DNA from: a virus
Lineage: Duplodnaviria; Caudoviricetes
Strand: one strand, 5' to 3'
IMG/VR virus record: IMGVR_UViG_3300028626_000002
Coordinates: 61,327 to 125,326 of that record
DNA length: 64,000 nt
Of this stretch, positions 89 to 53,769 are shown in pieces; positions within the stretch are counted from its first letter, which is position 1, and the number at the start of each line of letters is the position of its first letter. The position numbers and the translations under genes were made by a program. The notes under the pieces were generated by a model. The model was not told the origin of the DNA and ran no database searches. It was given only the letters and a program-made list of their open reading frames with translations.

Positions 89-577
89 ATGGCCACACCA
101 GAGGAACTTGCGTACTGCGCAGGGGTAATTGACTCGGATGGGTGCATCCGAGTGGGTCGCGGGGTCAAGCGTGACAAGCGAGCGGGCAAACACAGCGCTT
201 ACGCTGACTACCACCCCGCTGTCCACGTCGGCCAGGTGGAACCACAAGCGGTTGACCTGCTGAAGCGGGTATTCGGAGGAAGCATCTACCTGCGCAAGCG
301 CGACAAGAAGGCCCACCGCACCTTGATGGTGTGGCGAGTGAGGGACAACCTTGCGGCGGAATGCGCCAGGCAGTTGCTGCCCTACCTGCGCATCAAGAAG
401 GCGCAGGCACTGAACTGTATTGCCCTGCAGGACTACCGCCACGAGTACGGCAGGCAGTCAAGGGCGGTGAAGGGGAGGGCCGGTACTACATTCCGCACAG
501 CCGACGTGATACAGAGGCTCGAGGAGTTCTACGCGGAGTCGAGGAGGCTCAACGCAGGGAGCACGGAGGAACCATAA
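89..577 (+). CDS. LAGLIDADG homing endonuclease (single motif)
   Basis: LAYCAGVIDSDGCI motif, FGGSIY and LLPYLRIKK are typical of phage LAGLIDADG HEGs; the stop overlaps the next start (TAATG). Confidence 0.85.
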   Translation: MATPEELAYCAGVIDSDGCIRVGRGVKRDKRAGKHSAYADYHPAVHVGQVEPQAVDLLKRVFGGSIYLRKRDKKAHRTLMVWRVRDNLAAECARQLLPYLRIKKAQALNCIALQDYRHEYGRQSRAVKGRAGTTFRTADVIQRLEEFYAESRRLNAGSTEEP

Positions 578-2352
578 TGGCCAACAAGACGCTGTTCAAG
601 TCCACGAGTAGCAAGCGTCCCCCCACGGACACGACCAACGAGGCCGGGGGCCGGGCATACAACAGGGACTCTCGCCTCGCGCTCGCGCAGCTCAGTGCAA
701 CCGGCTGCCTCGGCGGCACGTTCTACACGAGCCCCGAACAGGAGCTGGCGACCATCCTGGACCTCTGTGGCCAGAACTCCCCCGAGTTCGTGGCCAAGGC
801 CGCCGTCTACGCCCGCAAGCGCGGGTTCATGAAGGACGCCCCCGCCCTGATGGTGGCGCACCTGGCGTCGCTGCAGACCGCGGAGGGCCGGAACGCCTTC
901 ACGCAGGCGTTCCCGCTCGTCATGGACAACGCGAAGATGGTCCGGAACTTCGTCCAGATCATCCGTTCCGGGCAGGCCGGCCGCAAGTCGTTCGGTTCCC
1001 GGCCCAAGAAGCTGATCCAGGCGTGGTTCAACAACATCCCGGACCACGCGCTGTTCAACTCCAGCATCGGGCAGGACCCGTCGCTGGGGGACATCATCAA
1101 CCTGGTCCACCCGCTGCCCAAGACGGACTCCCGCCGGGCCTTGTACGGCTACCTGAAGGGCACCGAGGGCATCACCCGGGAGGCGTTCGACCGGCTGCCG
1201 CAGGCCGAGCGGTTCAACCGGCATGGCGACCCGCGCTTCTACTTCTCCGACGACCTGCCGCCCCTGGTGCAGGCCTACGAGCAGCTGAAGCGCGGCGCGT
1301 GGGACGGCGAGCAGCTGCCGCGGGTCAACTTCCAGATGCTGACCTCGCTGAAGCTGTCGAAGGACCAGTGGGCCGAGGTGGCCATGACGATGTCGTGGTA
1401 CGCCCTGCGGATGAACCTGAACACCCTGCTGCGGCATGGCGTGTTCGACATCCCGGGGATGACGCCGAAGATCGTCGCCCGGCTGACGGACCCGGAGGCC
1501 ATCCGCAAGGCCAAGGCCTTCCCGTACCAGCTGCTGACCGCGTACCTCTACGCGGACGACAAGCTGCCGCGCGCGGTCAAGAACGCCCTGCAGGACGCCA
1601 TGGAGGTGGCCTGCGAGAACGTCCCGCTCATCGGGAGCGGCCGCATCCTCATCTGCCCGGACGTGTCCGGGTCGATGCGCGAGCCCATCACCGGCAAGCG
1701 GGACCAGGTGTCGAAGATCAACCGCATCCACGTGGCGGCGCTCATCGCCGCGGCGCTGATGCGGAAGAACCCGGACGCGGACATCCTGCCGTTCGCCAAC
1801 GACGTGCGCGGGGACATCCAGTTCAACCCCCGCGACAGCATCATGACGAACGCCCAGCGCGTCTACGACGCGGCCGCCGGCGGAACCCGCATGGCCGCGC
1901 CGCTGCTCCTGGCCAACCGGGAGCAGCGGAAGTACGAGGCGGTGGTCTTCGTCTCGGACAACGAGTCCTGGATGGACAGCGAGGGTCGGCACTACGGCCC
2001 CTGCGGGAAGCAGCTGTGGTCGAACCCCCTGTTCCAGCACCCGACCACCAAGGACTGGGGGGCGACGCAGACCCTGGAGGAGTGGAACACCTTCTCCCGG
2101 CGCAACCACGGCGCCAAGCTGGTGTGCGTCGACCTGACGCCGGACACCACCGTGCAGTGCATCGACCGGGCGGACATCCTCAACGTCGGCGGCTTCTCCG
2201 ACGCGGTGTTCGACGTCATCGACTCGTTCGCGAAGGGCGACCTGACCCCGGAGCACTGGGTGGGCGAGATCGAGCGCATCAACCTGCACCAGTTCGACCC
2301 GACCCCACACGAGGTGGGCCAGGTCGAGGAATCGGCCGAGCCGCTGGCCTAA
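577..2352 (+). CDS. rsr: Ro60/TROVE-domain RNA-binding protein (Rsr-like) with C-terminal vWA domain
   Basis: TNEAGGRAY, GTFY, ALRMNLNTLLRHGVF, FPYQLLTAY, vWA MIDAS DVSGSM, VSDNESW, VGGFSDAVF; true start MANKTLF at 577. Confidence 0.93.
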   Translation: MANKTLFKSTSSKRPPTDTTNEAGGRAYNRDSRLALAQLSATGCLGGTFYTSPEQELATILDLCGQNSPEFVAKAAVYARKRGFMKDAPALMVAHLASLQTAEGRNAFTQAFPLVMDNAKMVRNFVQIIRSGQAGRKSFGSRPKKLIQAWFNNIPDHALFNSSIGQDPSLGDIINLVHPLPKTDSRRALYGYLKGTEGITREAFDRLPQAERFNRHGDPRFYFSDDLPPLVQAYEQLKRGAWDGEQLPRVNFQMLTSLKLSKDQWAEVAMTMSWYALRMNLNTLLRHGVFDIPGMTPKIVARLTDPEAIRKAKAFPYQLLTAYLYADDKLPRAVKNALQDAMEVACENVPLIGSGRILICPDVSGSMREPITGKRDQVSKINRIHVAALIAAALMRKNPDADILPFANDVRGDIQFNPRDSIMTNAQRVYDAAAGGTRMAAPLLLANREQRKYEAVVFVSDNESWMDSEGRHYGPCGKQLWSNPLFQHPTTKDWGATQTLEEWNTFSRRNHGAKLVCVDLTPDTTVQCIDRADILNVGGFSDAVFDVIDSFAKGDLTPEHWVGEIERINLHQFDPTPHEVGQVEESAEPLA

Positions 2353-2448
2353 CCCACCAGCAGCTCAGTCACCCCGGCCCCGTGGCGCGTGCTCCCGCTC
2401 ACGGGGCCGGGGAGTCCCCTCTCCCCATCCCTTCACCATGAGGACACT

Positions 2449-2961
2449 GTGAGCAGCGACTCGAAGTCCACCTTCGTTCAGGACCTCCGTACGAAGTTCG
2501 GCACGGAGCCGTTCACCGACAGCAAGGACCCCAAGAACGGCAGCATCCTGTACCTCCGGGTCGGCAAGGGCGCCGACACCTGGATCGTGACCGTCAACTA
2601 CCAGCTCTACGCCCCCCGGAAGCCGCAGGGCAGCCACCTCGTCACGTACGGGGTGTCCGTCCGGAACCCCCGCGACTCCTACCACCGCGAGTACGGCCAG
2701 GCTGTGGCGTGGATGCGTCGCAGGGAGGCGGACCGCACTTTCCTCAGCGGCCCCCGGCGGGCGTTCTGGGGCAACATGACCCTCGAGGACGGCGTCGCGG
2801 AGGCCGGCCGCTCGGGCGTCACCAAGGCGGTCATCGCCAGGGTCACCAAGCACCTCTCCACGGACGAGTACGTGCCCATGCCGCTGCGGCTCGCCACGGT
2901 GGCGGCCACGCAGGACTGGGCCAACAGGCAGCAGGAGAAGGAGGAACACGCGCATGCTTGA
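2449..2961 (+). CDS. hypothetical protein
   Basis: ORF with phage-like codon usage; GTG start after AGGA; start uncertain. Confidence 0.6.
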   Translation: MSSDSKSTFVQDLRTKFGTEPFTDSKDPKNGSILYLRVGKGADTWIVTVNYQLYAPRKPQGSHLVTYGVSVRNPRDSYHREYGQAVAWMRRREADRTFLSGPRRAFWGNMTLEDGVAEAGRSGVTKAVIARVTKHLSTDEYVPMPLRLATVAATQDWANRQQEKEEHAHA

Positions 2962-3442
2962 CCAGCTCCAGGAACAGAACCTTCCCGGCACCGGCCCGCA
3001 CTCCGGCGTGGGCAGCTACGAGGTCCGCGAGGCCCCCGTGGTCATCCCCGACCCCGATGGGGGCGAGGGCACCCCCGCCACCGTCCCGTACGTGGCCTTC
3101 CAGCCGGCCGTGGTCGTCACCGCGGGTCCCGCCGAGATCGCCGCCGCCGAGGGCAGGGACCTCGAGGGCACGGGCTCCGGGGTGGTCAGCGCCACGGCCC
3201 TCAGCGCCTCCCGCCCCGACCAGAACGCCGACTGCATCCCGCCCGAGGACCTGTTCAAGGCCGTGACCGAGGGCAATGGCGTGGACATCTACGTGCGCCA
3301 GCGCGGGGTCGTCCTGAAGTACCGGGTCGTCATCGACGAGCTCCCCGACGAGGGCATCACGTTCGGGGCCGTCGAGAACAACGGCACGCTCGACGAGATC
3401 GGCTACGCCAACTACGACGACCACCCCACCTCCATGGGGTAG
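2954..3442 (+). CDS. hypothetical acidic protein
   Basis: GAGGA SD, overlap with the previous gene, high GC3. Confidence 0.65.
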   Translation: MLDQLQEQNLPGTGPHSGVGSYEVREAPVVIPDPDGGEGTPATVPYVAFQPAVVVTAGPAEIAAAEGRDLEGTGSGVVSATALSASRPDQNADCIPPEDLFKAVTEGNGVDIYVRQRGVVLKYRVVIDELPDEGITFGAVENNGTLDEIGYANYDDHPTSMG

Positions 3443-3463
3443 CGGTACAACGCAGGAAGTTGT

Positions 3464-3471
3464 GGTATAAC
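3464..3471 (+). promoter_or_regulatory. putative promoter for the ncRNA cluster
   Basis: TGTGGTATAAC, the same GGTATAA motif found in about 12 other intergenic regions, immediately upstream of Y-RNA unit 0. Confidence 0.5.
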
Positions 3472-3481
3472 AAGCATGGAA

Positions 3482-3537
3482 GGCCGAATGCTCGCCGGGT
3501 CTACAGGCGATGAAGACTCGGCACCAGGTCGTCGGCC
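3482..3537 (+). ncRNA. Y RNA-like unit 0 (minimal, Ro-binding stem only)
   Basis: GGCCGAATG...TCGTCGGCC terminal stem with inner stem GCCGGGTCT/AGACTCGGC; same frame as the eight downstream units. Confidence 0.65.
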
Positions 3538-3614
3538 AGCCCACACGGGGGACAAGAGAGCCCGGAGGAGGAAACTCCTACCGGGACCCCCCGCGGGGCA
3601 AGCTCCTTGACAAT

Positions 3615-3981
3615 GGGGGTGACCCGGTTTCGACAGGGCGAAGCAGACATGCAGCAGCGCGCCGTGGTTGGTCAGCAGGCCACGTAAAAAGCCGACCAGA
3701 GCAAACTGCCAACTTCAACACCTTCACCGAGGACTCGCTCTTCGGTGGCAAGCTGAAGCCCCTGGCCGCGGTCGAGGGATTCGTCCCGACGACCAACGCC
3801 TCGCAGTTCGCCTACGCCTGACGGTTCATCCGCTGGCGGGTTGCTGGACCTGAAAACCAGCTGGGCACGCAGCCCCGAGTAGAGCTGCAGAGTGCCACGT
3901 CCTCACCATGACGTGGCTACGCACGTAGACGCTGTATCAAGCACGTTCTGGACTGGGGTTCGACTCCCCACACCTCCACCA
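3615..3981 (+). ncRNA. ssrA: tmRNA
   Basis: 5' GGGGGTG pairs with 3' CACCTCC-ACCA (G3:U70); T-arm GGGGTTCGACTCCCC; 5' GACCCGGTTTCGAC; internal tag ORF 3708-3821 starting GCC AAC. Confidence 0.95.
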
Positions 3982-4201
3982 TGCCGGTGCCCGTTGGCAG
4001 AACCCCGGGTTTCGCAACCAGGGGGATGGCGGGAAGCGACACCGGCAGCTGCACGCGTCGTTGGCAATGTCTCCGGGGCACCGGGGTTCGCCGCAAGGCC
4101 GACCCCACCGCCCCGGGGCATGCAGCACGACTCTTTACGGCTTGACAGCCGGCAGCAACCGTGGCACCTTCAGCGTGTCACTGGCTCTTTGCAACGTGCC
4201 T

Positions 4202-4259
4202 GGCCGAATGCCTAGCGGGGGTACTACCATTCACGTTCCCTCGCGCCTCATCGTCGGCC
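4202..4259 (+). ncRNA. Y RNA-like unit 1 (minimal)
   Basis: GGCCGAATGCC..GGGGGTAC....TCGTCGGCC. Confidence 0.7.
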
Positions 4260-4271
4260 GGCTTGAATCGT

Positions 4272-4386
4272 TCCGCTGAATGTCGTGAGCGGCTACTGGG
4301 CGGGCCTCAGAAGCGAGGGTCAAGGTCGGTTGGAATCCGACCCCATTCACCCGAAAGGGTTGGCCGGCACCATTATCGTCAGCGGG
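4272..4386 (+). ncRNA. Y RNA-like unit 2
   Basis: CCGCTGAATG...TCGTCAGCGG stem; inner T-arm-like GTCGGTTGGAATCCGAC and a CCCGAAAGGG hairpin. Confidence 0.65.
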
Positions 4387-4417
4387 TCCTCGTTCGTTGA
4401 CAACCAGTCGCAGACGC

Positions 4418-4554
4418 ACCTGACCGAATGCCTGTTGGGGGTACTTCCACTGCTAATGGAGAGGTCGCAGGTTCAAGTCCTGCCGTCCGGCTCGCCGGGC
4501 GTAGCTCAGCTGGGAGAGCGCTTACGTTCCCTCGACGATATTCGTCGGTCAGGT
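4418..4554 (+). ncRNA. YrlA-type Y RNA unit 3 with permuted tRNA-like domain
   Basis: ACCTGACCGAATG...TCGTCGGTCAGGT stem; T-arm GCAGGTTCAAGTCCTGC, closed acceptor-like hairpin, then D-arm TAGCTCAGCTGGGAGAGC. Confidence 0.85.
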
Positions 4555-4565
4555 TCTACTCGCAT

Positions 4566-4702
4566 CGGGTCGAATGCACGTGAGGAGTACATGAGGGCAC
4601 CGCAGGTCGTGGGTTCAAATCCCACCTCCCCGCCTTCGTACGGGGGGTAGCTCAGCCTGGGAGAGCATCGGTATTGAGCTCTTCGCACCCCATCGTCGAC
4701 CC
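4566..4702 (+). ncRNA. YrlA-type Y RNA unit 4
   Basis: CGGGTCGAATG...TCGTCGACCCG; T-arm GTGGGTTCAAATCCCAC, CTCCCCG/CGGGGGG hairpin, D-arm TAGCTCAGCCTGGGAGAGC. Confidence 0.85.
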
Positions 4703-4717
4703 GGTTCTTCTGTCACA

Positions 4718-4880
4718 CGTGCCGAATGCCTGCCGGGGTTACTTCAACAGCGCTACCAGGTCCGAATCCTGGGTCGGCGCCGCAAGGGGCCGTCGAGAGT
4801 GTGGATTGGCAGACACCTCCCGCCTTGCCGCAAGGCGACGGGGGCACCCAAGAAAGTCCCCAGCACCAATGGTCGGCACG
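4718..4880 (+). ncRNA. Y RNA-like unit 5 (large variable domain)
   Basis: CGTGCCGAATGCC...GGTCGGCACG; T-arm variant CCAGGTCCGAATCCTGG and two GCAA-capped hairpins. Confidence 0.7.
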
Positions 4881-4888
4881 GTTCTCGT

Positions 4889-5023
4889 TGACCAGATGCC
4901 CGCTCGGACTACATCACGCGCCGGAGATAGGGGAGCAGCGTCCCCTGCGCCATTCGTGGCGTTCGACCAAAGCAGGTCGCCGGGCCCGCAAGGGCTACCT
5001 CCGAACGAACGAATCGCTGGTCA
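4889..5023 (+). ncRNA. Y RNA-like unit 6
   Basis: TGACCAGATGCC...TCGCTGGTCA, a covarying version of the terminal stem, with a multi-hairpin interior. Confidence 0.65.
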
Positions 5024-5034
5024 TGCGCAACGTC

Positions 5035-5178
5035 ACGAGTCAGATGCCCGTAGGGAGTACACTGAAAATTCTTGGGCCGCAGGTTCAAATCCTGCCCTCT
5101 CCACTCACGGAGAGGTAGCTCAGTTGGTAGAGCAAAGAAGCCGAAAGGCTGCACTCTCTGCACCCTTCGCTGACTCGT
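5035..5178 (+). ncRNA. YrlA-type Y RNA unit 7
   Basis: ACGAGTCAGATG...TCGCTGACTCGT; T-arm GCAGGTTCAAATCCTGC, CCTCTCC/GGAGAGG hairpin, D-arm TAGCTCAGTTGGTAGAGC. Confidence 0.85.
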
Positions 5179-5217
5179 CTACTCGCGGGCTGAGCTAGTC
5201 AGCCCCTCGCTCGTGTC

Positions 5218-5293
5218 CTTGGTCGAATGCCTCGCGGGTGTACATCAGATTCTGGATCTGACCCAAGTCACTCGCACTTCGTCGTCGACCAAG
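5218..5293 (+). ncRNA. Y RNA-like unit 8 (short)
   Basis: CTTGGTCGAATGCC..GCGGGTG...CACTCGC..TCGTCGACCAAG. Confidence 0.7.
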
Positions 5294-5392
5294 CTCAGCT
5301 ACCCGTGTCCCGCGTCTGCGGCAGGTCCACGCGTCACCATCATCGCCGTTCGCCATGGCTGAACCCACCAACATCAACAGGAGCAGGTACAC

Positions 5393-5605
5393 ATGAACGT
5401 CCGCATCTTCCGCCTGGGTGGCTCCGGTGCCCGCCAGATCGAGCTGTCCGCCGGCGCCACCGTCGCCGACGCCGCGCAGGCCGCCGACCTGCCCACCTCC
5501 GGCCACACGATCTCCGTGAACGGCCTGGGCGCCGCCCTGAACACCGCCCTGTCGGACGGGGACACGGTCTCCCTGGTCCCGAAGGTCGAGGCCGGCTCCC
5601 TGTAG
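5393..5605 (+). CDS. ubiquitin-like beta-grasp protein (ThiS/MoaD-like), C-terminus ..VEAG-SL
   Basis: 70 aa; ATVADAA, ISVNG and LSDGDTVSLVPKVEAG are typical of prokaryotic Ubls; AGGAG SD. Confidence 0.85.
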   Translation: MNVRIFRLGGSGARQIELSAGATVADAAQAADLPTSGHTISVNGLGAALNTALSDGDTVSLVPKVEAGSL

Positions 5606-5670
5606 CCGCCGCGCCGCGTCCGTCCCCCTGCCTAGCACAGGGCGGGGGGACGGACGTCAAGGAGACCTGC

Positions 5671-7287
5671 ATGGGCATGTTGCGTAACACCCTGATCAAG
5701 CACCCCGGTCTCAGGGCCCAGATGGAATTTCTGGCGGCTCAGCACGGCATCGACATCGAGTTCGTCACCCACGCGTCCCCCCAGGAAGTCAAGGTCGTTC
5801 GTCCGCCGAAGCACGTCGTCGTTCTGTCGTTCGGCAACGACAGCAGCACCCGCGGGTTTAGCGCACTGTACGACAAGGAGCGGCTGACGTACGTCGGCCC
5901 CTGGAGCGGGTACGGCTCGTACTGCCCCGGGTGCACCTCCGGTATTCCCATCACCGTCCCGGCGGCCGCCGGCGGCACCAAGACCGTCGGTCTCCGGGTG
6001 GGCAACGTCATCTACCTGTACTTCTCCCTCGAGCAGCTGTTCGAGCATGGCACGTCGCTGGCGTGGCAGCCCGAGGACGCAGGCGGGTACGGCCTCGAGT
6101 ACGTCGACGGCCTGGGGTACGGCCGGTGGGTGACTGGGGGCGATTCCGTCGCGCTGGTCCGCAAGCTCTTCAACGACATCTTCGACAAGCACATGCCGGA
6201 AGCGGCGAAGGCCGTCCTGGAGTTCAACTGGGACATCGAGCGGGCGGACTTCGTCACCCGCCAGGCGAGGTTCTTCGCCACCGTGTTCGAGAAGTGGTCG
6301 TCGCGTCTCTCGCAGGTCGAGCAGGAGAAGTGGAACGCCGGCGAGCACCTGCGGACGCTCTGTCGAGAGGAAGCGCATCTGCGGGCATCCTGCGAGGGCT
6401 GGGAGGCCGCCGCGCCCGCCCGGAAGAAGCAGGCGGAGGACGCGTTCGACACGTACATCTCGTACGTCAAGAACGGCGTCATCAGCGACGCCCAGTGGGC
6501 GGGGTCTACGTTCTCGTTCGTGGTCAACCCGCTGAACGTGGGCGGCGACCACGAGTACGCCACGGAGATGGGGCCGTGGAGGGTCTCGCTGGACTTCAAC
6601 ACGTGCGCCTGCAGCATCAGCAAGATGGACCACACCGTCCTGTCGTCGTCGGGCTTCTGGCACCCGCACATCAACCTGAGCGGGCGCCTCTGCATGGGCA
6701 ACGCCGACGCGCTGCTGCACGAGGCCGTGGGTCGCTCGGACCTGGTCGGGGCCATCGCCGTCATCCTCGAGTTCCTGCAGGGGTACAACGAGGACTCCCC
6801 GTACTGCCGTATCGAGCAGTGGAACCCCGACTACTCCGATGACGACGACCACGAGAGCTGCTACGAGAACTCGAGCCCCCATGACTGTGTGTGCTGCTAC
6901 CGGGACTGCGGGTACCGCGATGACGCCGAGTCGCGGTGCTGGGACTACCACGAGGACACTCCCAAGGACTGCATCCGCTGCCGCGACTGCGACTACGTCG
7001 ACACCGCGGAAGAGAACTGTCACCGTGACCAGGTGAATTGCGGGTACGCCTGGAAGTGCGTGGGCGAGTGCGAGCTCAGCCGCTGCGCGTACTACCAGGA
7101 CAGCGACAGCTGCTACGATTCCCACGAAGGCGCCGAATGCACGGACTGCTGCGTGGGCAGCGACTGCAGGCGCTACGTGGACTCCGAGGCCGCCGAGGAG
7201 CCCGAAGAGGCCCCCGTGGAGCAGGCGGCGGAGCAGATGACACCCGTCGGCGAGGCCGTCCCCGAGACGGTGGAGGAGACCGCATGA
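5671..7287 (+). CDS. E2/UBC-like conjugating protein with upstream coiled coil and C-terminal Cys-rich (Zn-binding) region
   Basis: WHPHINLSGRLCMG (HPH-x7-C E2 signature) followed by helices ending in YNEDSPY; more than 20 Cys in the C-terminal 130 aa; operon context. Confidence 0.75.
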   Translation: MGMLRNTLIKHPGLRAQMEFLAAQHGIDIEFVTHASPQEVKVVRPPKHVVVLSFGNDSSTRGFSALYDKERLTYVGPWSGYGSYCPGCTSGIPITVPAAAGGTKTVGLRVGNVIYLYFSLEQLFEHGTSLAWQPEDAGGYGLEYVDGLGYGRWVTGGDSVALVRKLFNDIFDKHMPEAAKAVLEFNWDIERADFVTRQARFFATVFEKWSSRLSQVEQEKWNAGEHLRTLCREEAHLRASCEGWEAAAPARKKQAEDAFDTYISYVKNGVISDAQWAGSTFSFVVNPLNVGGDHEYATEMGPWRVSLDFNTCACSISKMDHTVLSSSGFWHPHINLSGRLCMGNADALLHEAVGRSDLVGAIAVILEFLQGYNEDSPYCRIEQWNPDYSDDDDHESCYENSSPHDCVCCYRDCGYRDDAESRCWDYHEDTPKDCIRCRDCDYVDTAEENCHRDQVNCGYAWKCVGECELSRCAYYQDSDSCYDSHEGAECTDCCVGSDCRRYVDSEAAEEPEEAPVEQAAEQMTPVGEAVPETVEETA

Positions 7288-8393
7288 AGGCCGTCAGCAA
7301 CGGCACTGTCCGGGTGAAGATCCTGGACCGCGAGTACCGCAAGCTCGACGCCTGGGCCCGCCTCGCCACCGGCGAGATTTCGGCCCTGGGCATGGTCGAG
7401 CTGGAGAGCGATGGTCCCCTGATCACCAGCCTCTTCATGCCCCGGCAGGTCTGCACGGGAGCCAGCAGCGACATGAACCAGGAGGACGTGGGCGCCTACC
7501 TCTGCGAGCTGATGGCGCGCGGGGAGGAGGGCAAGCTCCGCGCCTGGGTCCACAGCCACGGTGACCTGGGGGTTTTCTGGTCCGGCACCGACCAGAACAC
7601 CATCAAGGACCTGGGCAGCGATCCGTACCTGGTCTCCGTCGTCGTCAACCGTAAGGGCGAGTACAAGGCCCGCATCGACATCAACAGCCCGTTCAAGGTC
7701 ACGATGGAGGACCTGAGCCTCGTGGTGGTGTACCGGGCGGACAAGGACCTCGAGGACGAGTGCAGGGCGGAGCTGGCCGCGAAGGTCACCTCCCCGGCGC
7801 CCAGCAGCACGCTCGGACGCTTCTCCGACCGGTTCGCCGGCTTCCGGGACCCGCGCATGTCCTTCGGCCAGGGGTGGCCCCGGGACAAGGATGACGACCG
7901 CCCTTTCGCGGGAAGCGCGGCAAGCAGCGACGCGGGGGCCGCGGCCGCGCGGAGCGAGGCGACCCCGGACGTCCATGACGAGGGGGAGGAGTCCTCCCTC
8001 GACTCGTACACGGCCCTGGAGCAGCGCTACGGGTACCTCTACGATCTCGAGGACCTCGTCGAGTTCGCACACCGCGCCGGAGGCGACCTGACCCTGTACA
8101 CCGCGACGGGGTTCAAGGGCGAGGCCGTCACCTTCCGCACCGAGAGCGAGCTGGACAAGGCCCACGAGATCGGCATGATGGACTCCCTGGCCTACGAGGT
8201 GTACTACCGGGCCCTCAACGAGTTCCGCGACCTGACCCTCCGGGGGCTGGAGGAGGCCATCGACGCGGCCTGGACGCGGTACGACATCGACGACCCGAAC
8301 AGCGGCAGGCGGCTGGAGGACGAGGACGAGGACGAGGACGAGGACCCGACGCCCCCCTCGGCGGAGGACCTGCAGGAGGCGTACACGGGATGA
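7284..8393 (+). CDS. JAB/MPN+ metallo-isopeptidase with acidic C-terminal extension
   Basis: GEISALG plus JAMM motif WVHSHGDLGVFWSGTD; ATGA-coupled to the E2 gene. Confidence 0.88.
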   Translation: MKAVSNGTVRVKILDREYRKLDAWARLATGEISALGMVELESDGPLITSLFMPRQVCTGASSDMNQEDVGAYLCELMARGEEGKLRAWVHSHGDLGVFWSGTDQNTIKDLGSDPYLVSVVVNRKGEYKARIDINSPFKVTMEDLSLVVVYRADKDLEDECRAELAAKVTSPAPSSTLGRFSDRFAGFRDPRMSFGQGWPRDKDDDRPFAGSAASSDAGAAAARSEATPDVHDEGEESSLDSYTALEQRYGYLYDLEDLVEFAHRAGGDLTLYTATGFKGEAVTFRTESELDKAHEIGMMDSLAYEVYYRALNEFRDLTLRGLEEAIDAAWTRYDIDDPNSGRRLEDEDEDEDEDPTPPSAEDLQEAYTG

Positions 8394-9067
8394 GTGAGCA
8401 GGCGCAGCAGGTCATCACGCTCCCCAAGGAGGTCTACGTCCGCCAGAGCGGCATCCTGCCGTTCGAGGTCCTGAACAAGTCCACCGTCACGGTCATCGGT
8501 GTCGGGGCCATCGGTTCCTTCACGGCCTTCAGCCTGGCCAAGATGGGCATCGGCACCATCCACGCCTACGATCACGACACCGTGGAGCCCCACAACCTCC
8601 CGGCGCAGTGGTACCGGCTCAAGGACCTCGAGCAGAAGAAGCCCGACGCCCTGGCCAGCCTCCTGGCGGACTTCGGCGGCAACGTCGTGAGCCACCCGGA
8701 GAAGTTCGTGGGGCAGTCGGTCCGCGGCATCGTGGTCTGCGCCGTGGACTCGATGGACGCCCGCCTGGCCATCTGGCGGCACGTCAAGAAGTGCCCCAAG
8801 GTCGACCTGTTCATCGACGGGCGCATGGGCGCCGAGGTCGGCAAGGTCTACGCCATCCGCCCGAAGAACCCCGCGGAGGTGAAGCTGTACGAGGAGGACC
8901 TGTACCCGTCGTCCGAGGCCTTCCAGGCCCCGTGCACGGAGCGCAGCACGATCTACTGCGCCACGGGCCTCAGCGCATTCATGGTCTCCGCCATCGCCGG
9001 CTTCCTGTCGGAGCGGCAGTTCCGGCCGTACATGGTCGTGGACTTCCGCAACGGCGTGATGCTGTAG
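8390..9067 (+). CDS. ThiF/E1-like activating enzyme
   Basis: VIGVGAIGS nucleotide-binding loop, DHDTVEPHNL, CAVDSMDAR, DGRMG, candidate catalytic Cys in APCTERS. Confidence 0.9.
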   Translation: MSEQAQQVITLPKEVYVRQSGILPFEVLNKSTVTVIGVGAIGSFTAFSLAKMGIGTIHAYDHDTVEPHNLPAQWYRLKDLEQKKPDALASLLADFGGNVVSHPEKFVGQSVRGIVVCAVDSMDARLAIWRHVKKCPKVDLFIDGRMGAEVGKVYAIRPKNPAEVKLYEEDLYPSSEAFQAPCTERSTIYCATGLSAFMVSAIAGFLSERQFRPYMVVDFRNGVML

Positions 9068-11559: not shown

Positions 11560-11617
11560 GTTGTTCTGCAACCTGCCGGAATGGTACCATCAAGCTCGGT
11601 AGGAGGTGCGTGGGCAA

Positions 11618-14600
11618 ATGGCGATCAGTTATGACGCAAAGGCGACGGTCGACTCCCTGATCAACACGGTTGCCAAGCGCATCGGGGTCATCTTCCCCAT
11701 CGAAGGGCGGCAGCACACGCTCGAGGTGCAGGACGTGCAGGCCTCGGGCGACTGGGACATGAAGGACATCGACGGGTACATGCGTGCCAAGCTCCACGGA
11801 CGCACGTGGGGCCTGCCTATCACCGGCACGCTCGTCGTGCGGGACAAGGCGACGGGCAAGGTGCTCGACCGCAAGCAGAACGCCCGCCTGATGACCCTGC
11901 CCGTGATGACCCGGCACTTCTCGTACATCGTGGACGGCAAGGAGTTCGACGCCACCCGTCAGTGGCGCCTGAAGGCCGGCGTGTACCACCGTGTGAAGGC
12001 GAACGGTCAGCTGGAGGCCCAGTGGAACCTCAGCGAGGGGCGCGGCTTCCACACCGCCTTCGACCCCGCTCGGCACAAGTTCACGATGCAGTACGCGTCG
12101 TCCACCGTGTCGCTGTACCCGGTCCTGCGTGCTCTGGGCACGTCGGATGCCGAGATCAGCCGGGCATGGGGGCCGGACCTGCTCGAGGGCAATGTCGGGT
12201 CTCCCGCGACCAGCGCCAGGGACCTCACGAAGCTCTACAAGGCCATCACCGGCAAGCCCCCGGCGGACGAGAAGGAGATGCTGCTGACCATTCGCGACAC
12301 GTTCGCGAAGACGGCCATGCGCCCCGACGTCAACAAGATCACCCTCGGCCGGCCCGACGACCGGGTCACCCCTGGTGGGCTGCTGCAGTCCTCCAAGCGC
12401 CTGTTGGACATGTCCCGGGGCAAGGGGGAGCCCGATGCCCGCGACAGCGTGGTGTTCAAGGAGCTGCTGGACATCGACGACTTCGTCGACGACCGCCTCG
12501 TGGCGATGACCCGCAAGATCCAGGGCAAGGTGCGCAACCGACTGGACCACGAGAACAAGGTCGACGCCATCTACTCCGCGGACTACATGAACCACCCCGT
12601 CAAGACGTTCTTCACGGGGATGTCGCTGGCGGAGCAGCCGCGGCAGGTGAACCCCGTCGACATGTTCAGCTCCATGACGAAGACCACGGTCATGGGCGAG
12701 GGCGGCATCCAGTCTTCCCACGGTGTGCCCCTCGAGGCACGCATCCTCGACAACAGCCACGTGGGCGTGCTGGACCCCATCCACAGCCCCGAGGGCGGGA
12801 AGGTGGGCATCAACCTGCATCTGGCCCTGGGCGCCGGCAAGCAGGGCAGGGAACCCACGCTCTACGTGCGCGACCCGGCAACCGGCAAGATCGAGACCAA
12901 GACCGTGCAGGACCTGGAGCCCCTGACCCTGGCGTTCCCCGACCAGTTCATCCGCCGGCCGGACGGCAAGATGCAGCCGGTGGCGAAGATGGTCACCGCC
13001 CTGGGGCCGGGCAACGAGATCGTGCGGGTGCCGGCGTCGAAGGTGGACTTCGTCTTGCCGACGCCCAAGGCCATGTTCAGCATCACCGGCAACCTCGTCC
13101 CGTTCCTCCAGAACACCTCCGGCCCGCGCGTGTCCTACGCGATGCACCACATGGAGCAGGCCCTGGCACTGAAGTACCGGGAGCAGCCCCTCATCGCGGT
13201 GGCCTCCGGCGGTGAGCGCGCCCCCACCTTCGAGGACCTCGTCGGCAGGTACTTCACCTCCCGGGCTCCCGTGGACGGCCGCGTCGTGCGCGTCGCCAAG
13301 GACCACATCAGCATCCGGGGGACCGACGGCAAGCTCTACAAGGAGCCGCTGTACGTCGACTACCCGCTGAACGAGAAGTCGGCGTTCATCAACAGCGAGC
13401 CGGTGGTCAAGGCGGGCGACAAGGTCGAGAAGGGACAGGTCGTCGCGGACACGAACCACACCCGGGACGGGCAGCTGGCCCTGGGCGTGAACCTCAAGAC
13501 CGCGTACATGCCCTACCTCTCGAACACCTACGACGACGCCATCGTCATCTCGGAGTCGGCGTCGCAGAAGCTCACGTCGCAGCACCTGTACAAGGAGCGC
13601 CTGGACGTCGACGAGGACATCACCGTCGACAAGGCCAAGTACCGGGCCATGTACCGCGACCGTCTGGACGACCGGCAGGCGAAGCAGCTGGACAACGAGG
13701 GTGTGGTACAGGAGGGCACCGTCGTACAGCCCGGGGACGTGCTGGTGACGGCTCTGCGGAAGCGCAGCCCCACCGAGGAAGAGCTGCTGGTCCGCGGCAT
13801 CGCGAAGAGTCTGGCCCGGCCCTTCGCCGACGTGGCCGTGCGGTGGGAGAGCCAGTACCCGGGCGTGGTCAAGCGTGTGGTGAAGAACGGGGACAACATC
13901 CAGGTTCACGTGGCCAGTGAGGAGCCGGCCGGCGTGGGCGACAAGCTCTGCTTCGACCCCGAGACCGAGTACCTGGTGGAAGGCAAGGGCTGGGTGAAGA
14001 GCCCGCTGCTCACGCCGGACGACCGAGTGCTCACGTACAAGGCCCCCGAGAACCCCAGCCACCGCCGGTCCACCGCGGATGGGTGGCTCGAGTGGCAGTA
14101 CCCGACACGGGTCGTGGAGTTCGACCACGACGGCCAGATGTACCGCGTGCTGACGGCCGAGATCGACCAGTTCGTGACGCCGAACCACAACCTCTACGTG
14201 AAGGTGCTGACGCGTGACCATCAGACCCTCCGGCAGAACCGCTTCCGGCTGGTGCAGGCCAGGAAGGTGCTGGGCAAGCCCGTCGTGCACGCGCAGTACG
14301 GCGCCAACGAGAATGTCCATGAGCCGGCCTCCCTGGAGTTCGGCAAGCGGACGGTGCCCACGCGGTCGTACCTGAAGCTGCTGGCCCACCTGTTCCGTCA
14401 CGGCATCCGCCGGGACCAGCTGGTGTTCTTCCCCGGCAACGGCTACTCGGCGTCCTGCCGGCAGGCCATGGACGAGTGCGGCATCACGTACTCCATCCGC
14501 ACCGTGGACAGCCGCGGCGGGCTGCTGACGAGCGACCCGCTGGTCTGCGACGTGGACTTCGAGAACAGCCTCCCGGCGTTCCTGGACACCCTGCCCACCC

Positions 14601-53669: not shown

Positions 53670-53744
53670 CCTCCCGTAGCTCAACCAGGTTAGAGCAGCG
53701 GTCTTCAAAACCGCCGGTTGCGGGTTCAACTCCCGCCGGGGGGA
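53670..53744 (+). tRNA. tRNA with UCA anticodon (opal suppressor, tRNA-Trp-like); CCA not encoded
   Basis: acceptor CCTCCCG/CGGGGGG, D-arm GCTC/GAGC, anticodon arm GCGGT-CTTCAAA-ACCGC, 5-nt variable loop, T-arm GCGGG-TTCAACT-CCCGC, ends A-CCT. Confidence 0.9.
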
Positions 53745-53769
53745 CCTACTCTCCACTGCGAGGTACCTC

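What the first reader, a model, noticed from the sequence alone, without database searches (positions are those of the whole stretch)
3482..5293. Tandem array of nine Y RNAs with a common Ro-binding stem and swappable inner domains
Seen: nine units (3482, 4202, 4272, 4418, 4566, 4718, 4889, 5035, 5218) share the frame 5' GNCGAATGCC..GGG.TAC ... CCC..CAC..TCGTCGNC 3', with compensatory changes in the terminal stem (for example GACCAGATG/TCGCTGGTC). Three units hold a circularly permuted tRNA module (T-arm, closed acceptor hairpin, then D-arm). Three hold other multi-hairpin domains. Three are minimal (56-76 nt). Known: bacterial YrlA Y RNAs have this GNCGAA stem with a permuted tRNA-like domain and lie next to Ro60, usually as one or two copies. 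Inference: this phage encodes a modular library of Ro60 adaptors that tether different partners or act as decoys for host anticodon nucleases or tRNA-sensing defences.
Basis: partly seen in the sequence, partly recalled or inferred. Interest (0 to 1): 0.85.

Follow-up and report, generated by a model that had tools for sequence, protein, structure and literature searches.

The report
Nine Y-RNA genes beside phage Ro60
A large uncultured phage carries, just downstream of its Ro60 RNA-binding protein gene, a transfer-messenger RNA gene and nine small RNA genes that share the known Ro60-docking stem but have different interiors; this is a known kind of RNA in an unusually large, tRNA-free array.

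Summary
All nine units exist at the stated places on the + strand. The core RATGY-N10-TAC occurs 9 times in 1.8 kb, against 1.7 expected in the whole 64-kb window. Each unit is closed by a perfect 6-10 bp terminal stem with compensatory changes.

Covariance models make six units robust (u1, u2, u4, u5, u8, u9). Two are weak (u6, u7). One (u3) rests only on the motif and its stem.

u4, u5 and u8 are YrlA-type: T arm, closed 7-bp acceptor hairpin and D arm. Their Rfam YrlA E-values are 1e-8 to 8e-7, below the gathering score.

The array is not strictly tandem. A tmRNA gene (3615-3981) and 220 nt of structured RNA separate u1 from u2-u9.

The same handle recurs beside Ro60 in about 100 related phage contigs, always on the Ro60 strand, with strong covariation. 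Most have 1-4 units and two have 8. There the units usually sit exactly between tRNA genes. This contig has only one tRNA.

Best reading: genes for Ro60-binding Y RNAs with diverse effector modules. The adaptor-library or decoy function is untested.

I found no paper describing phage arrays this large. This scan has noted similar handle-sharing RNA arrays beside Ro60-like genes on other phage DNA.

The parts
577..2352 (+). Ro60 (TROVE + vWA) gene, 591 aa
   Evidence: Pfam vWA_Ro60 1.8e-15 and TROVE 3.8e-8. PHROG 850 RNA-binding protein 3e-35. PDB 2NVO Rsr 1e-19 and phage phiLo Ro60 9KOP 1e-14. 41.6% identical to the Myxococcus phage Mx1 protein.
3463..3471 (+). Extended -10-like box TGGTATAAC, 10 nt before u1 (candidate promoter; inference only)
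   Evidence: Only match in the window, 0.07 expected. The generic sigma-70 scan found no promoter or terminator in 2300-5600.
3482..3537 (+). u1: minimal Y-like RNA, 56 nt (S1 GGCCGA/TCGGCC, S2 8 bp)
   Evidence: R1 32.1 bits, not in R1's training set. R2 50.2 bits, in R2's training set. Weak Rfam YrlB match, 18 bits. Fold z -3.0.
3538..3600 (+). Structured hairpin of unknown role between u1 and the tmRNA
   Evidence: MFE -39.9 kcal/mol, z -4.6, 0 of 200 shuffles as stable. No Rfam match.
3615..3981 (+). tmRNA gene embedded in the array; G3:U70 acceptor, encoded CCA, 37-aa tag
   Evidence: Rfam RF00023 108.7 bits (gathering score 47), full length. Tag reading frame 3708-3821.
3982..4198 (+). 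Structured RNA of unknown identity (two long hairpin domains); carries AAUGU..CCGGGG, possibly a decayed unit
   Evidence: MFE -109.5 kcal/mol, z -3.0. No hit with R1, R2 or Rfam. No similarity in relatives.
4200..4261 (+). u2: minimal Y-like RNA, 62 nt
   Evidence: R1 30.8 bits. R2 61.2 bits, in R2's training set. S1 8 bp, S2 7 bp. Fold z -3.5.
4272..4386 (+). u3: divergent unit. Handle variant GCUGAAUGU, S1 8 bp, interrupted S2. Interior has a T-arm-like hairpin (GUCGG-UUGGAAU-CCGAC) and a GAAA-tetraloop hairpin.
   Evidence: Motif hit and perfect S1. The MFE keeps S1 and S2. R2 only 6.5 bits, E 0.5 within the region. This is the weakest member.
4418..4554 (+). u4: YrlA-type unit. Handle, V-arm/anticodon-like hairpin (UUCCA-CUGCUAA-UGGAG), T arm, closed 7-bp acceptor hairpin, UA, D arm.
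   Evidence: Rfam YrlA 46.4 bits, E 1.2e-8. R2 42.2 bits, independent of R2's training set. ARAGORN miscalls 4424-4491 as tRNA-Ser(gct). 82% identical over 76 nt to a YrlA-type unit of a Mycobacterium prophage.
4564..4705 (+). u5: YrlA-type unit (T arm, 7-bp acceptor hairpin with an 8-nt loop, D arm, 4-bp anticodon-stem analogue)
   Evidence: Rfam YrlA 40.1 bits, E 7.6e-7. R2 35.5 bits. RNAalifold consensus.
4718..4881 (+). u6: divergent unit, 164 nt. Handle with bulged S2. Interior has a T-arm-like hairpin (CCAGG-UCCGAAU-CCUGG) and several hairpins, two with GCAA loops.
   Evidence: R1 31.6 bits full length. R2 12.2 bits using an alternative 3' closure at 4774-4780. The MFE keeps S1 and S2.
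4889..5023 (+). u7: divergent unit. Handle variant CCAGAUGC/UCGCUGG. Interior of four hairpins, no T arm.
   Evidence: Motif and S1 of 7 bp. R2 11.3 bits, E 0.028 within the region. The MFE does not form S2.
5035..5178 (+). u8: YrlA-type unit. Handle variant UCAGAUGC, T arm, 7-bp acceptor hairpin, D arm, 5-bp UUCUU/AAGAA stem, extra GAAA hairpin.
   Evidence: Rfam YrlA 40.7 bits, E 5.4e-7. R2 27.1 bits. Fold z -3.9.
5185..5207 (+). Short hairpin GGGCUGA-GCUAG-UCAGCCC that resembles an S1 stem alone (possible collapsed unit or processing hairpin)
   Evidence: R2 local match 8 bits, E 0.2. Read directly from the sequence.
5218..5293 (+). u9: minimal Y-like RNA, 76 nt, with a small apical hairpin
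   Evidence: R1 34.8 bits. R2 62.8 bits, in R2's training set. Fold z -3.6.

Best explanation
The 1.9-kb non-coding stretch downstream of the phage Ro60 gene encodes a tmRNA and nine members of the YrlA-like Y RNA family.

Each RNA pairs its own 5' and 3' ends into a two-helix handle. The handle consists of stem S1, an asymmetric loop carrying CGAAUGC on the 5' side and UCG on the 3' side, stem S2 with a conserved G.U pair, and then UAC. By analogy with bacterial and phage Y RNAs, this handle is the docking site for the ring protein Ro60.

The interior differs from unit to unit:
- Three are bare hairpins, likely acting only as gates or occupants of Ro60.
- Three are circularly permuted tRNA mimics (T arm, sealed 7-bp acceptor stem, D arm). 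These could engage tRNA-recognising enzymes such as RNase P, TruB or the CCA-adding enzyme.
- Three are lineage-specific multi-hairpin domains. Two of them keep a T-arm-like hairpin.

The RNAs are probably made from one or a few long precursors and cut apart. The resulting set of Ro60-Y RNPs would differ in which partner (for example host PNPase) or substrate they bring to Ro60 during infection.

Shown here: the existence of the units, the shared and covarying structure, family membership by sequence and structure, linkage to Ro60, and conservation of the handle in about 100 related phage loci.

Inferred: transcription, processing, Ro60 binding and any partner recruitment.
For: 1. Clustering: 9 motif hits in 1.8 kb on one strand, against 1.67 expected in 128 kb of both strands.
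2. Within the window: perfect S1 in all nine units, with two-sided compensatory changes at each of the six innermost pairs.
3. Rfam YrlA matches u4, u5 and u8 full length at E 1e-8 to 8e-7. Their RNAalifold consensus has S1, S2, T arm, acceptor and D arm, with 16 of 34 pairs compensatory.
4. Model R1, built from u4, u5 and u8, finds u9, u1, u6 and u2 (31-35 bits). Model R2, built from minimal units, finds u4, u5 and u8 (27-42 bits). Only one other marginal hit appears in the 64 kb on both strands.
5. Family-wide covariation: 56 units from 23 loci are 95.3% paired. The covariation score is 0.711 against at most 0.131 for slid controls, and 0 of 500 shuffles reach it. 14 of 15 pairs show two-sided changes, and the S2 G.U is present in 46 of 56. 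The R1-based alignment gives 0.435 against at most 0.083.
6. Linkage to Ro60: in 80 metagenome loci chosen only for a Ro60 relative, R2 finds 123 units. All are on the Ro60 strand, and most begin within about 200 nt of its stop codon.
7. The handle carries the published GNCGAA(N0-1)G motif of YrlA and lies within 4 kb of Ro60 on the same strand, which were the criteria of Chen et al. 2014 (PMC4201824).
8. Ro60 is a full-length open frame that aligns with its relatives from residue 1.
9. Precedent: a phage Ro60 binds two phage-encoded Y-like RNAs and host PNPase in vitro (PMC12135203).
Against:
- The three YrlA-type units score below Rfam's gathering threshold (40-46 against 69 bits).
- u3, u6 and u7 are weak or undetectable with the frame model, and u7's minimum-energy fold does not form S2.
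- No sigma-70 promoter or intrinsic terminator was found.
- The covariation alignments are model-fitted, which inflates pairing somewhat.
- Two complete phage genomes carry the same kind of unit with no detectable Ro60, so the handle need not always work with a phage-encoded Ro60.
- The contig shows no RNA-repair or tRNA-maturation enzymes (RtcB, CCA-adding enzyme, SmpB) that would point to a pathway.
Confidence: 0.72

Rival explanations
1. Decoy or sponge. The RNAs are made in bulk to soak up host factors rather than to equip the phage Ro60 with partners. Candidate targets are host Rsr/Ro60, tRNA-binding enzymes, anticodon nucleases and tRNA-sensing defence proteins.
For: - In relatives the units sit inside phage tRNA arrays. 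Authors cited in PMC12803027 regard such arrays as putative anti-defence devices.
- u4 and units in L018, L031 and a Mycobacterium prophage keep a hairpin with an anticodon-like 7-nt loop, CUGYUAA or CUUGUAA.
- Some complete phages have units but no detectable Ro60.
- High copy number fits titration.
Against: - The only invariant part is the Ro60-type handle, not the tRNA-like part.
- Six of the nine units have no complete tRNA mimic.
- Units lie on the same strand as phage Ro60 and mostly just downstream of it in 123 of 123 cases.
- The hairpin in question corresponds to the 'V arm' already described for YrlA, so it need not be an anticodon mimic.
Confidence: 0.13
2. Structured spacers. The units are processing or stability elements of a polycistronic tRNA/tmRNA precursor, such as nuclease entry sites or insulators. 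They were inherited from a tRNA operon and have no Ro60 binding.
For: - In L014/L074 and L044 the units abut tRNA genes with 0-8 nt spacers and alternate with them.
- Here the array contains a tmRNA.
- Two phages have units without a detectable Ro60.
Against: - In this contig there are no tRNAs to process around the units.
- The handle matches the published Ro60-binding motif.
- The tight, strand-specific association with Ro60 across 80 loci is not expected of generic spacers.
- Most relatives have units directly after Ro60 rather than between tRNAs.
Confidence: 0.08
3. Decaying remnants of a tRNA gene array, or dimeric-tRNA false positives, with no present function.
For: - Relatives have 20-34 tRNA genes around Ro60, whereas this contig has one.
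- Dimeric tRNAs do score with YrlA-type models. Several R1 hits in L013, L014, L015 and L024 overlap tRNA pairs, a caveat also raised in PMC4201824.
Against: - Minimal units have no tRNA features yet keep the handle.
- There are compensatory changes with no broken S1 pair.
- The handle is conserved across phages whose Ro60 proteins are only 40-47% identical.
- No unit overlaps a real tRNA. The best tRNA score is 24.9 bits, below the cut-off of 29.
Confidence: 0.03

Closest known systems
YrlA (Rfam RF02553; Chen et al. 2014, PMC4201824): the tRNA-mimicking Y RNA of Salmonella, Mycobacterium smegmatis and mycobacteriophages
   Same: - The GNCGAA(N0-1)G handle formed by the 5' and 3' ends.
- A CUAC/UAC element after the second helix and UYGUCG on the 3' strand.
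- A permuted tRNA-like domain in the order (V arm)-T arm-closed acceptor-D arm, seen in u4, u5 and u8.
- Location within 4 kb of Ro60 on the same strand.
- A 7-bp acceptor stem, as in the M. smegmatis RNA that RNase P cleaves.
   Different: - Scores fall below Rfam's gathering threshold (40-46 against 69 bits).
- There are nine handle-bearing genes instead of the usual one to three.
- Six of the nine lack the tRNA-like domain.
- The handle variant CAGAUGC/UCGCUG occurs in two units.
- A tmRNA gene lies inside the array.
YrlB (Rfam RF02565) and other short second Y RNAs (M. smegmatis YrlB, D. radiodurans Yrn2)
   Same: A short Ro60-bound RNA encoded next to YrlA, consisting essentially of the stem plus a small interior. 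u1, u2 and u9 play this structural role.
   Different: There is no real sequence match (18 bits against a gathering score of 97). The minimal 62-86-nt class found here is conserved across many phage contigs and carries its own consensus.
Thermus phage phiLo Ro60 with Yrl1 and Yrl2 (PMC12135203; PDB 9KOP, 9L5Y)
   Same: A phage-encoded Ro60 with phage-encoded Y-like RNAs carrying a CGAA motif next to the gene. In vitro these form a ternary complex with host PNPase. The Ro60 proteins are homologous (E 1e-14).
   Different: - phiLo has two RNAs upstream of Ro60; here there are nine downstream.
- No tRNA-like module is mentioned in the passages of that paper I read.
- Nothing has been tested biochemically for this phage.
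Y-like units interleaved with tRNA genes in related uncultured phages
   Same: The same handle consensus, the same bimodal sizes (about 65-85 nt and about 125-157 nt), the same linkage to Ro60, and arrays of 5-8 units.
   Different: In those contigs the units sit exactly between tRNA genes inside 20-34-gene tRNA arrays. Here no tRNA gene lies in or near the array, and the 125-kb contig has a single tRNA.

Membership tests
YrlA (Rfam RF02553 / Chen et al. 2014) | GNCGAA(N0-1)G motif on the 5' strand of the terminal stem | tested here: met
   Exact in u1, u2, u5, u6 and u9 (GCCGAAUG or GUCGAAUG). Variants are ACCGAAUG (u4), GCUGAAUG (u3, with a compensating A on the 3' strand) and CAGAUG (u7, u8, with a compensating 3' CUG).
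YrlA (Rfam RF02553 / Chen et al. 2014) | Encoded within 4 kb of a Ro60/TROVE gene, on the same strand | tested here: met
   Ro60 lies at 577-2352 (+) and the units at 3482-5293 (+). In 80 related loci, 123 of 123 units are on the Ro60 strand.
YrlA (Rfam RF02553 / Chen et al. 2014) | tRNA-like domain: T arm, closed acceptor-like stem-loop and D arm, in that permuted order | tested here: met
   Met for u4, u5 and u8 only. u3 and u6 have only a T-arm-like hairpin. u7, u1, u2 and u9 have none.
YrlA (Rfam RF02553 / Chen et al. 2014) | Score at or above Rfam's gathering threshold (69 bits) | tested here: not met
   46.4, 40.7 and 40.1 bits, with E 1.2e-8 to 7.6e-7 in a 2.2-kb search. The own-genome search gave E 1.6e-10 to 1e-8.
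YrlA (Rfam RF02553 / Chen et al. 2014) | Bound by Ro60/Rsr in vivo; carries tRNA-type modifications or is cut by RNase P | not testable with these tools
Y RNA in the broad sense | 5' and 3' ends pair into a conserved stem with an internal loop or bulge, supported by covariation, plus a variable effector module | tested here: met
   S1 and S2 are 95.3% paired in 56 sequences. 14 of 15 pairs show two-sided changes. The covariation score is 0.711 against at most 0.131 for slid controls.
YrlB (Rfam RF02565) | Match to the family model at the gathering score (97 bits) | tested here: not met
   Only u1 matches, at 18 bits and E 3.6.
tRNA (Rfam RF00005) | Canonical cloverleaf at or above 29 bits | tested here: not met
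   The best score in the array is 24.9 bits at 4420-4491 (u4). ARAGORN's tRNA-Ser(gct) call there uses handle nucleotides as an acceptor stem.
tmRNA (Rfam RF00023), for 3615-3981 | Full-length match above 47 bits, a tRNA-Ala-like acceptor with G3:U70 and CCA, and a tag reading frame | tested here: met
   108.7 bits over model positions 1-374. The acceptor GGGGGUG/CACCUCC-ACCA is read. The tag is 37 aa ending in YA and a stop codon. ARAGORN did not call it.

The most novel reading that the evidence does not exclude
Large phages of this clade use Ro60 as a common chassis and a genome-encoded library of handle-tagged RNAs (here nine) as interchangeable adaptors or decoys. Each would direct the RNP to a different host RNA or enzyme, or blunt a tRNA-targeting defence. 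In this phage the library would have displaced the tRNA array in which it normally nests. The abutting arrangement in relatives would further mean that Y RNA ends are set by the tRNA-processing enzymes RNase P and RNase Z.
Probability: 0.2. Interest if true: 0.85.

Novelty: new variant of a known kind. Interest (0 to 1): 0.6.

Why it matters
Ro60-Y RNA particles are known from animals, bacteria and a few phages, but what the RNA's variable half does is still poorly understood, especially in viruses.

A phage that keeps one Ro60 gene and nine RNAs with the same docking handle but different interiors is a natural experiment in modularity. It gives nine defined RNAs to test for Ro60 binding, gating and partner recruitment.

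The comparative result is broader than this window:
- The handle recurs beside Ro60 in about 100 uncultured phage contigs.
- The units fall into two size classes.
- They are often wedged exactly between tRNA genes.

This links Y RNA biogenesis to tRNA processing and places Ro60 in the phage tRNA/tmRNA toolkit. It also shows that current Rfam thresholds and tRNA finders miss or mis-annotate these genes. One example is the 'tRNA-Thr' annotation in a Mycobacterium prophage.

Tried and rejected
- Nucleotide searches of 3400-5400 against GenBank phages. Megablast found nothing. Blastn found only a 76-nt match to two Mycobacterium prophages.
- Generic sigma-70 promoter and terminator scan of 2300-5600 found none.
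- Searches of the 125-kb contig for RtcB, a CCA-adding/PolyA_pol enzyme and SmpB found none. The contig is only about 68% complete.
- tblastn of the neighbouring ORFs (2389-2961, 2954-3442, the HNH gene, the ThiS-like gene and 5605-7287) against 210 related loci gave no hits. Only Ro60 and the RNAs are shared.
- BLAST of the interiors of u3, u6 and u7, and of the two structured spacers, against related loci gave no hits. Pairwise identity of the interiors is at shuffle level except among u4, u5 and u8.
- An exact-pattern scan of IMG/VR with GNCGAATGC-N5-GGG-N2-TAC returned more than 117 stretches. By my own estimate, a pattern with 14 specified bases yields hundreds of chance hits in a collection that size. 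Only about 17 of the 80 loci fetched held real units by R2.
- A split-Ro60 idea for contig L062 (a 326-aa ORF plus a vWA-only ORF flanking two units) was rejected, because neither ORF resembles Ro60.
- Reading the u4 hairpin as a true anticodon arm was set aside. It occupies the 'V arm' position of the published YrlA model, so anticodon mimicry is only a possibility.
- MAFFT alignments of whole units misalign the 3' strand of S2. S2 was therefore assessed by anchored pairing and by model-based alignments.
Full report
**What is in the sequence**

The window is the last 64 kb of a 125-kb IMG/VR viral contig, about 68% complete. Positions 577-2352 (+) encode a 591-aa Ro60. It has the Pfam vWA_Ro60 and TROVE domains and matches PHROG 850. 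It is homologous to D. radiodurans Rsr (2NVO), Thermus phage phiLo Ro60 (9KOP) and Xenopus Ro60 (1YVP). It is 41.6% identical to the Ro60 of Myxococcus phage Mx1.

Two unknown ORFs follow. After them comes a 1.9-kb stretch that holds only RNA-like elements.

**Checking the observation**

A deliberately loose core pattern, RATGY-N10-TAC, matches 12 times in the window. Nine of those matches lie on the + strand between 3487 and 5243. The chance expectation is 1.67 for both strands, and 0 of 100 shuffles reached 12. The other 61 kb of the contig adds one match, which I did not examine further.

Anchoring on that motif shows that each unit pairs the 6-10 nt before AUG with a downstream segment without a single mismatch. 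This is stem S1. Each of its six innermost positions shows a two-sided compensatory change among the nine copies, for example GA/UC becoming AG/CU in u7 and u8.

The ten nucleotides before UAC form a second helix, S2:
- It has 7-9 pairs in u1, u2, u4, u5, u8 and u9.
- It is interrupted in u3 and u6.
- It competes with another pairing in u7.

All nine minimum-energy folds close the terminal stem, with z-scores from -1.6 to -3.9.

**The three classes**

- u4, u5 and u8 are YrlA-type. Rfam's YrlA model matches them end to end at 46.4, 40.1 and 40.7 bits (E 1.2e-8 to 7.6e-7), which is below the gathering score of 69. Their RNAalifold consensus contains S1, S2, a 5-bp T arm with a UUCAAAU-type loop, a sealed 7-bp acceptor hairpin, UA, and a GCUC...GAGC D arm. 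Compensatory changes occur at 16 of 34 pairs.
- u4 has an extra hairpin, UUCCA-CUGCUAA-UGGAG. This explains why ARAGORN calls a false tRNA-Ser there. The hairpin sits where Chen et al. place the 'V arm' of YrlA.
- u1, u2 and u9 (56-76 nt) are little more than the handle.
- u3 and u6 carry a T-arm-like hairpin plus GNRA-capped hairpins.
- u7 carries four hairpins and no T arm.

The interiors of u3, u6 and u7 resemble nothing in the related loci I fetched. They resemble each other no more than shuffled sequence does.

**Strength of support, unit by unit**

A covariance model built from u4, u5 and u8 (R1) finds u9, u1, u6 and u2 at 31-35 bits. A handle-only model built from nine minimal units of this and four related contigs (R2) was run without filters over the whole window. 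It finds u4, u5 and u8 at 42.2, 35.5 and 27.1 bits. Only one unrelated marginal hit appears in the 64 kb on both strands.

Restricted to 3300-5500, R2 gives:
- u6: 12.2 bits, E 0.016
- u7: 11.3 bits, E 0.028
- u3: 6.5 bits, E 0.5

So six units are robust, two are weak, and u3 rests on the motif, a perfect 8-bp S1 and its position in the array.

**The array is not purely tandem**

Between u1 and u2 lie three elements:
- a stable hairpin (z -4.6);
- a full-length tmRNA at 3615-3981 (108.7 bits), with a G3:U70 acceptor and a 37-aa tag frame;
- 220 nt of structured RNA of unknown identity (z -3.0).

Spacers between u2 and u9 are 5-39 nt. No sigma-70 promoter or terminator was detected. A single extended -10-like box, TGGTATAAC, lies 10 nt before u1 (0.07 expected per window). 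This is a lead, not a finding.

**Relatives**

Twelve IMG/VR contigs and 315 metagenome contigs encode Ro60 proteins 37-48% identical to this one. None is closer.

The same handle recurs there: S1, CGAAUGC, S2 ending in GGGA, then NUACAU; on the 3' side, UCUC, then 5-7 nt, then UUGUCG and S1'. It comes in two size classes, about 62-86 nt and about 125-157 nt.

Fifty-six units from 23 loci were aligned to R2:
- 95.3% of cells are paired.
- The covariation score is 0.711, against at most 0.131 when partners are slid.
- 14 of 15 pairs show two-sided changes.
- A G.U pair in S2 is kept in 46 of 56.

The R1-based alignment agrees. Both alignments are model-fitted, so the pairing percentages are somewhat optimistic, but the margin over the controls is large.

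In 80 metagenome loci picked only for their Ro60 gene, R2 finds 123 units. Every one is on the Ro60 strand, and most start within about 200 nt of the stop codon. Typical loci have 1-4.

Larger arrays exist: 8 units in IMGVR 3300036985_002246, 8 in 3300034782_000062, and 5 within 4.2 kb of 3300027917_000034. A Mycobacterium prophage has three tandem YrlA-type units upstream of its Ro-like gene. One of them is annotated as tRNA-Thr.

Nine is therefore the top of the observed range rather than a unique case.

**An unexpected contrast**

In many of the relatives examined, Ro60 sits in a 16-34-gene tRNA array, in two of them with a tmRNA. The Y-like units occupy the gaps between tRNA genes with 0-8 nt to spare, in places alternating tRNA-Y-tRNA-Y.

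In this contig the array contains the tmRNA but not a single tRNA. The whole 125 kb has one tRNA, with anticodon UCA. Either the tRNA genes lie in the missing third of the genome, or this lineage lost them and expanded the Y RNAs.

The abutting arrangement in relatives suggests that tRNA-processing enzymes set the Y RNA ends there. How the ends are made here is unknown.

**How it most likely works**

Published work establishes the following:
- Bacterial Y RNAs dock on Ro60 through the stem formed by their ends, with the GNCGAA motif.
- They can tether Ro60 to PNPase.
- YrlA's other half mimics tRNA well enough to be modified by TruB and DusA. In M. smegmatis, which also has a 7-bp acceptor stem, it is cut by RNase P and receives CCA (PMC4201824).
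- A phage Ro60 binds two phage Y-like RNAs and host PNPase in vitro (PMC12135203).

By analogy, the nine RNAs here should all dock on the phage Ro60 through the common handle and differ in what their interiors present. That the handle is the selected part is shown here. Binding, processing and partner choice are inferred.

I rate this reading at about 0.72. Rival readings are:
- decoys or sponges for host factors (0.13);
- structured spacers of a former tRNA operon (0.08);
- decaying tRNA remnants (0.03).

Two complete phage genomes carry units but no detectable Ro60. This keeps the first two rivals alive.

**Novelty**

Y RNAs, YrlA and phage-encoded Y RNAs are known. The papers I found report one to four per locus, and none describes arrays of this size or interleaving with tRNA genes. 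The review articles on bacterial Y RNAs were not available to read.

Notes from this scan report similar handle-sharing RNA arrays of 4-10 copies beside Ro60-like genes in other phages. Those notes are unverified leads, but they fit what I measured in the relatives here.

I therefore class this as a new variant of a known kind. What distinguishes this example is the canonical YrlA-type handle, the largest copy number seen here, an embedded tmRNA and the absence of tRNA genes.

Noticed in passing
window 3615-3981 (tag frame 3708-3821): The phage tmRNA encodes a 37-aa tag, ANFNTFTEDSLFGGKLKPLAAVEGFVPTTNASQFAYA. The tmRNAs of two related contigs (L013, L015) encode 13-aa tags ending in AA. ARAGORN failed to call this gene, while Rfam scores it at 108.7 bits. 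No SmpB gene was found in the contig.
   Followed up: partly
window 53670-53746: The only bona fide tRNA in the 125-kb contig has anticodon UCA (loop CUUCAAA), so it would read UGA. ARAGORN labels it tRNA-SeC. It may be an opal suppressor, which would hint at stop-codon recoding.
   Followed up: no
window 3982-4198 and 3538-3600: Two strongly structured non-coding segments flank the tmRNA (z -3.0 and -4.6). They match no Rfam family and nothing in relatives. The first contains AAUGU...CCGGGG, reminiscent of a decayed handle.
   Followed up: partly
L014/L074 (IMGVR_UViG_3300036985_002246) 150-2490; L044 (IMGVR_UViG_3300027917_000034) 1275-4126: In related phages the Y-like units fill the gaps between tRNA genes with 0-8 nt spacers, in places alternating tRNA-Y-tRNA-Y. 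This implies that RNase P and 3' tRNA processing set the Y RNA ends.
   Followed up: partly
L062 11730-11939 (69.9-kb contig with terminal repeats) and L029 8139-8205 (58.6-kb contig with terminal repeats): Two apparently complete phage genomes carry good handle units (55, 31 and 45 bits) with no detectable Ro60/TROVE gene. In L062 a stand-alone vWA-domain ORF follows the units. In L029 the unit lies just upstream of the portal gene. These units may work with the host's Ro60.
   Followed up: partly
L222 (MW584167.1, Mycobacterium phage prophiGD43A-5) 374-840: The feature annotated 'tRNA-Thr (tgt)' overlaps a YrlA-type unit (R1 63.7 bits). Two more tandem units follow, upstream of the Ro-like gene. 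This is a probable mis-annotation caused by an anticodon-like V-arm loop, CUUGUAA.
   Followed up: yes
window 5393-9067: Directly after the array lies an operon with a ThiS-like small protein (5393-5605), an unknown 560-aa protein, a weak JAB-like protein and a ThiF/E1-like protein (8390-9067). This looks like a ubiquitin-like conjugation cassette. Further downstream are a LAGLIDADG ORF and an RNA polymerase beta-like gene (11606-16192).
   Followed up: partly
window 89-577: An ORF matching PHROG HNH endonuclease (1.4e-17) ends in TAATG, overlapping the Ro60 start codon. It is probably a mobile endonuclease inserted just upstream of Ro60.
   Followed up: no
window 4717-4782 versus 4718-4881: u6 has two possible 3' closures for its S1 stem, UCGGCGC at 4774-4780 and UCGGCACG at 4874-4881. 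It could therefore fold as a 62-nt or a 164-nt RNA.
   Followed up: partly
window 5185-5207: The hairpin GGGCUGA-GCUAG-UCAGCCC between u8 and u9 looks like an S1 stem with everything else deleted. The spacers after u4 and u8 share CUACUCGC, and several spacers begin with UUCU.
   Followed up: no
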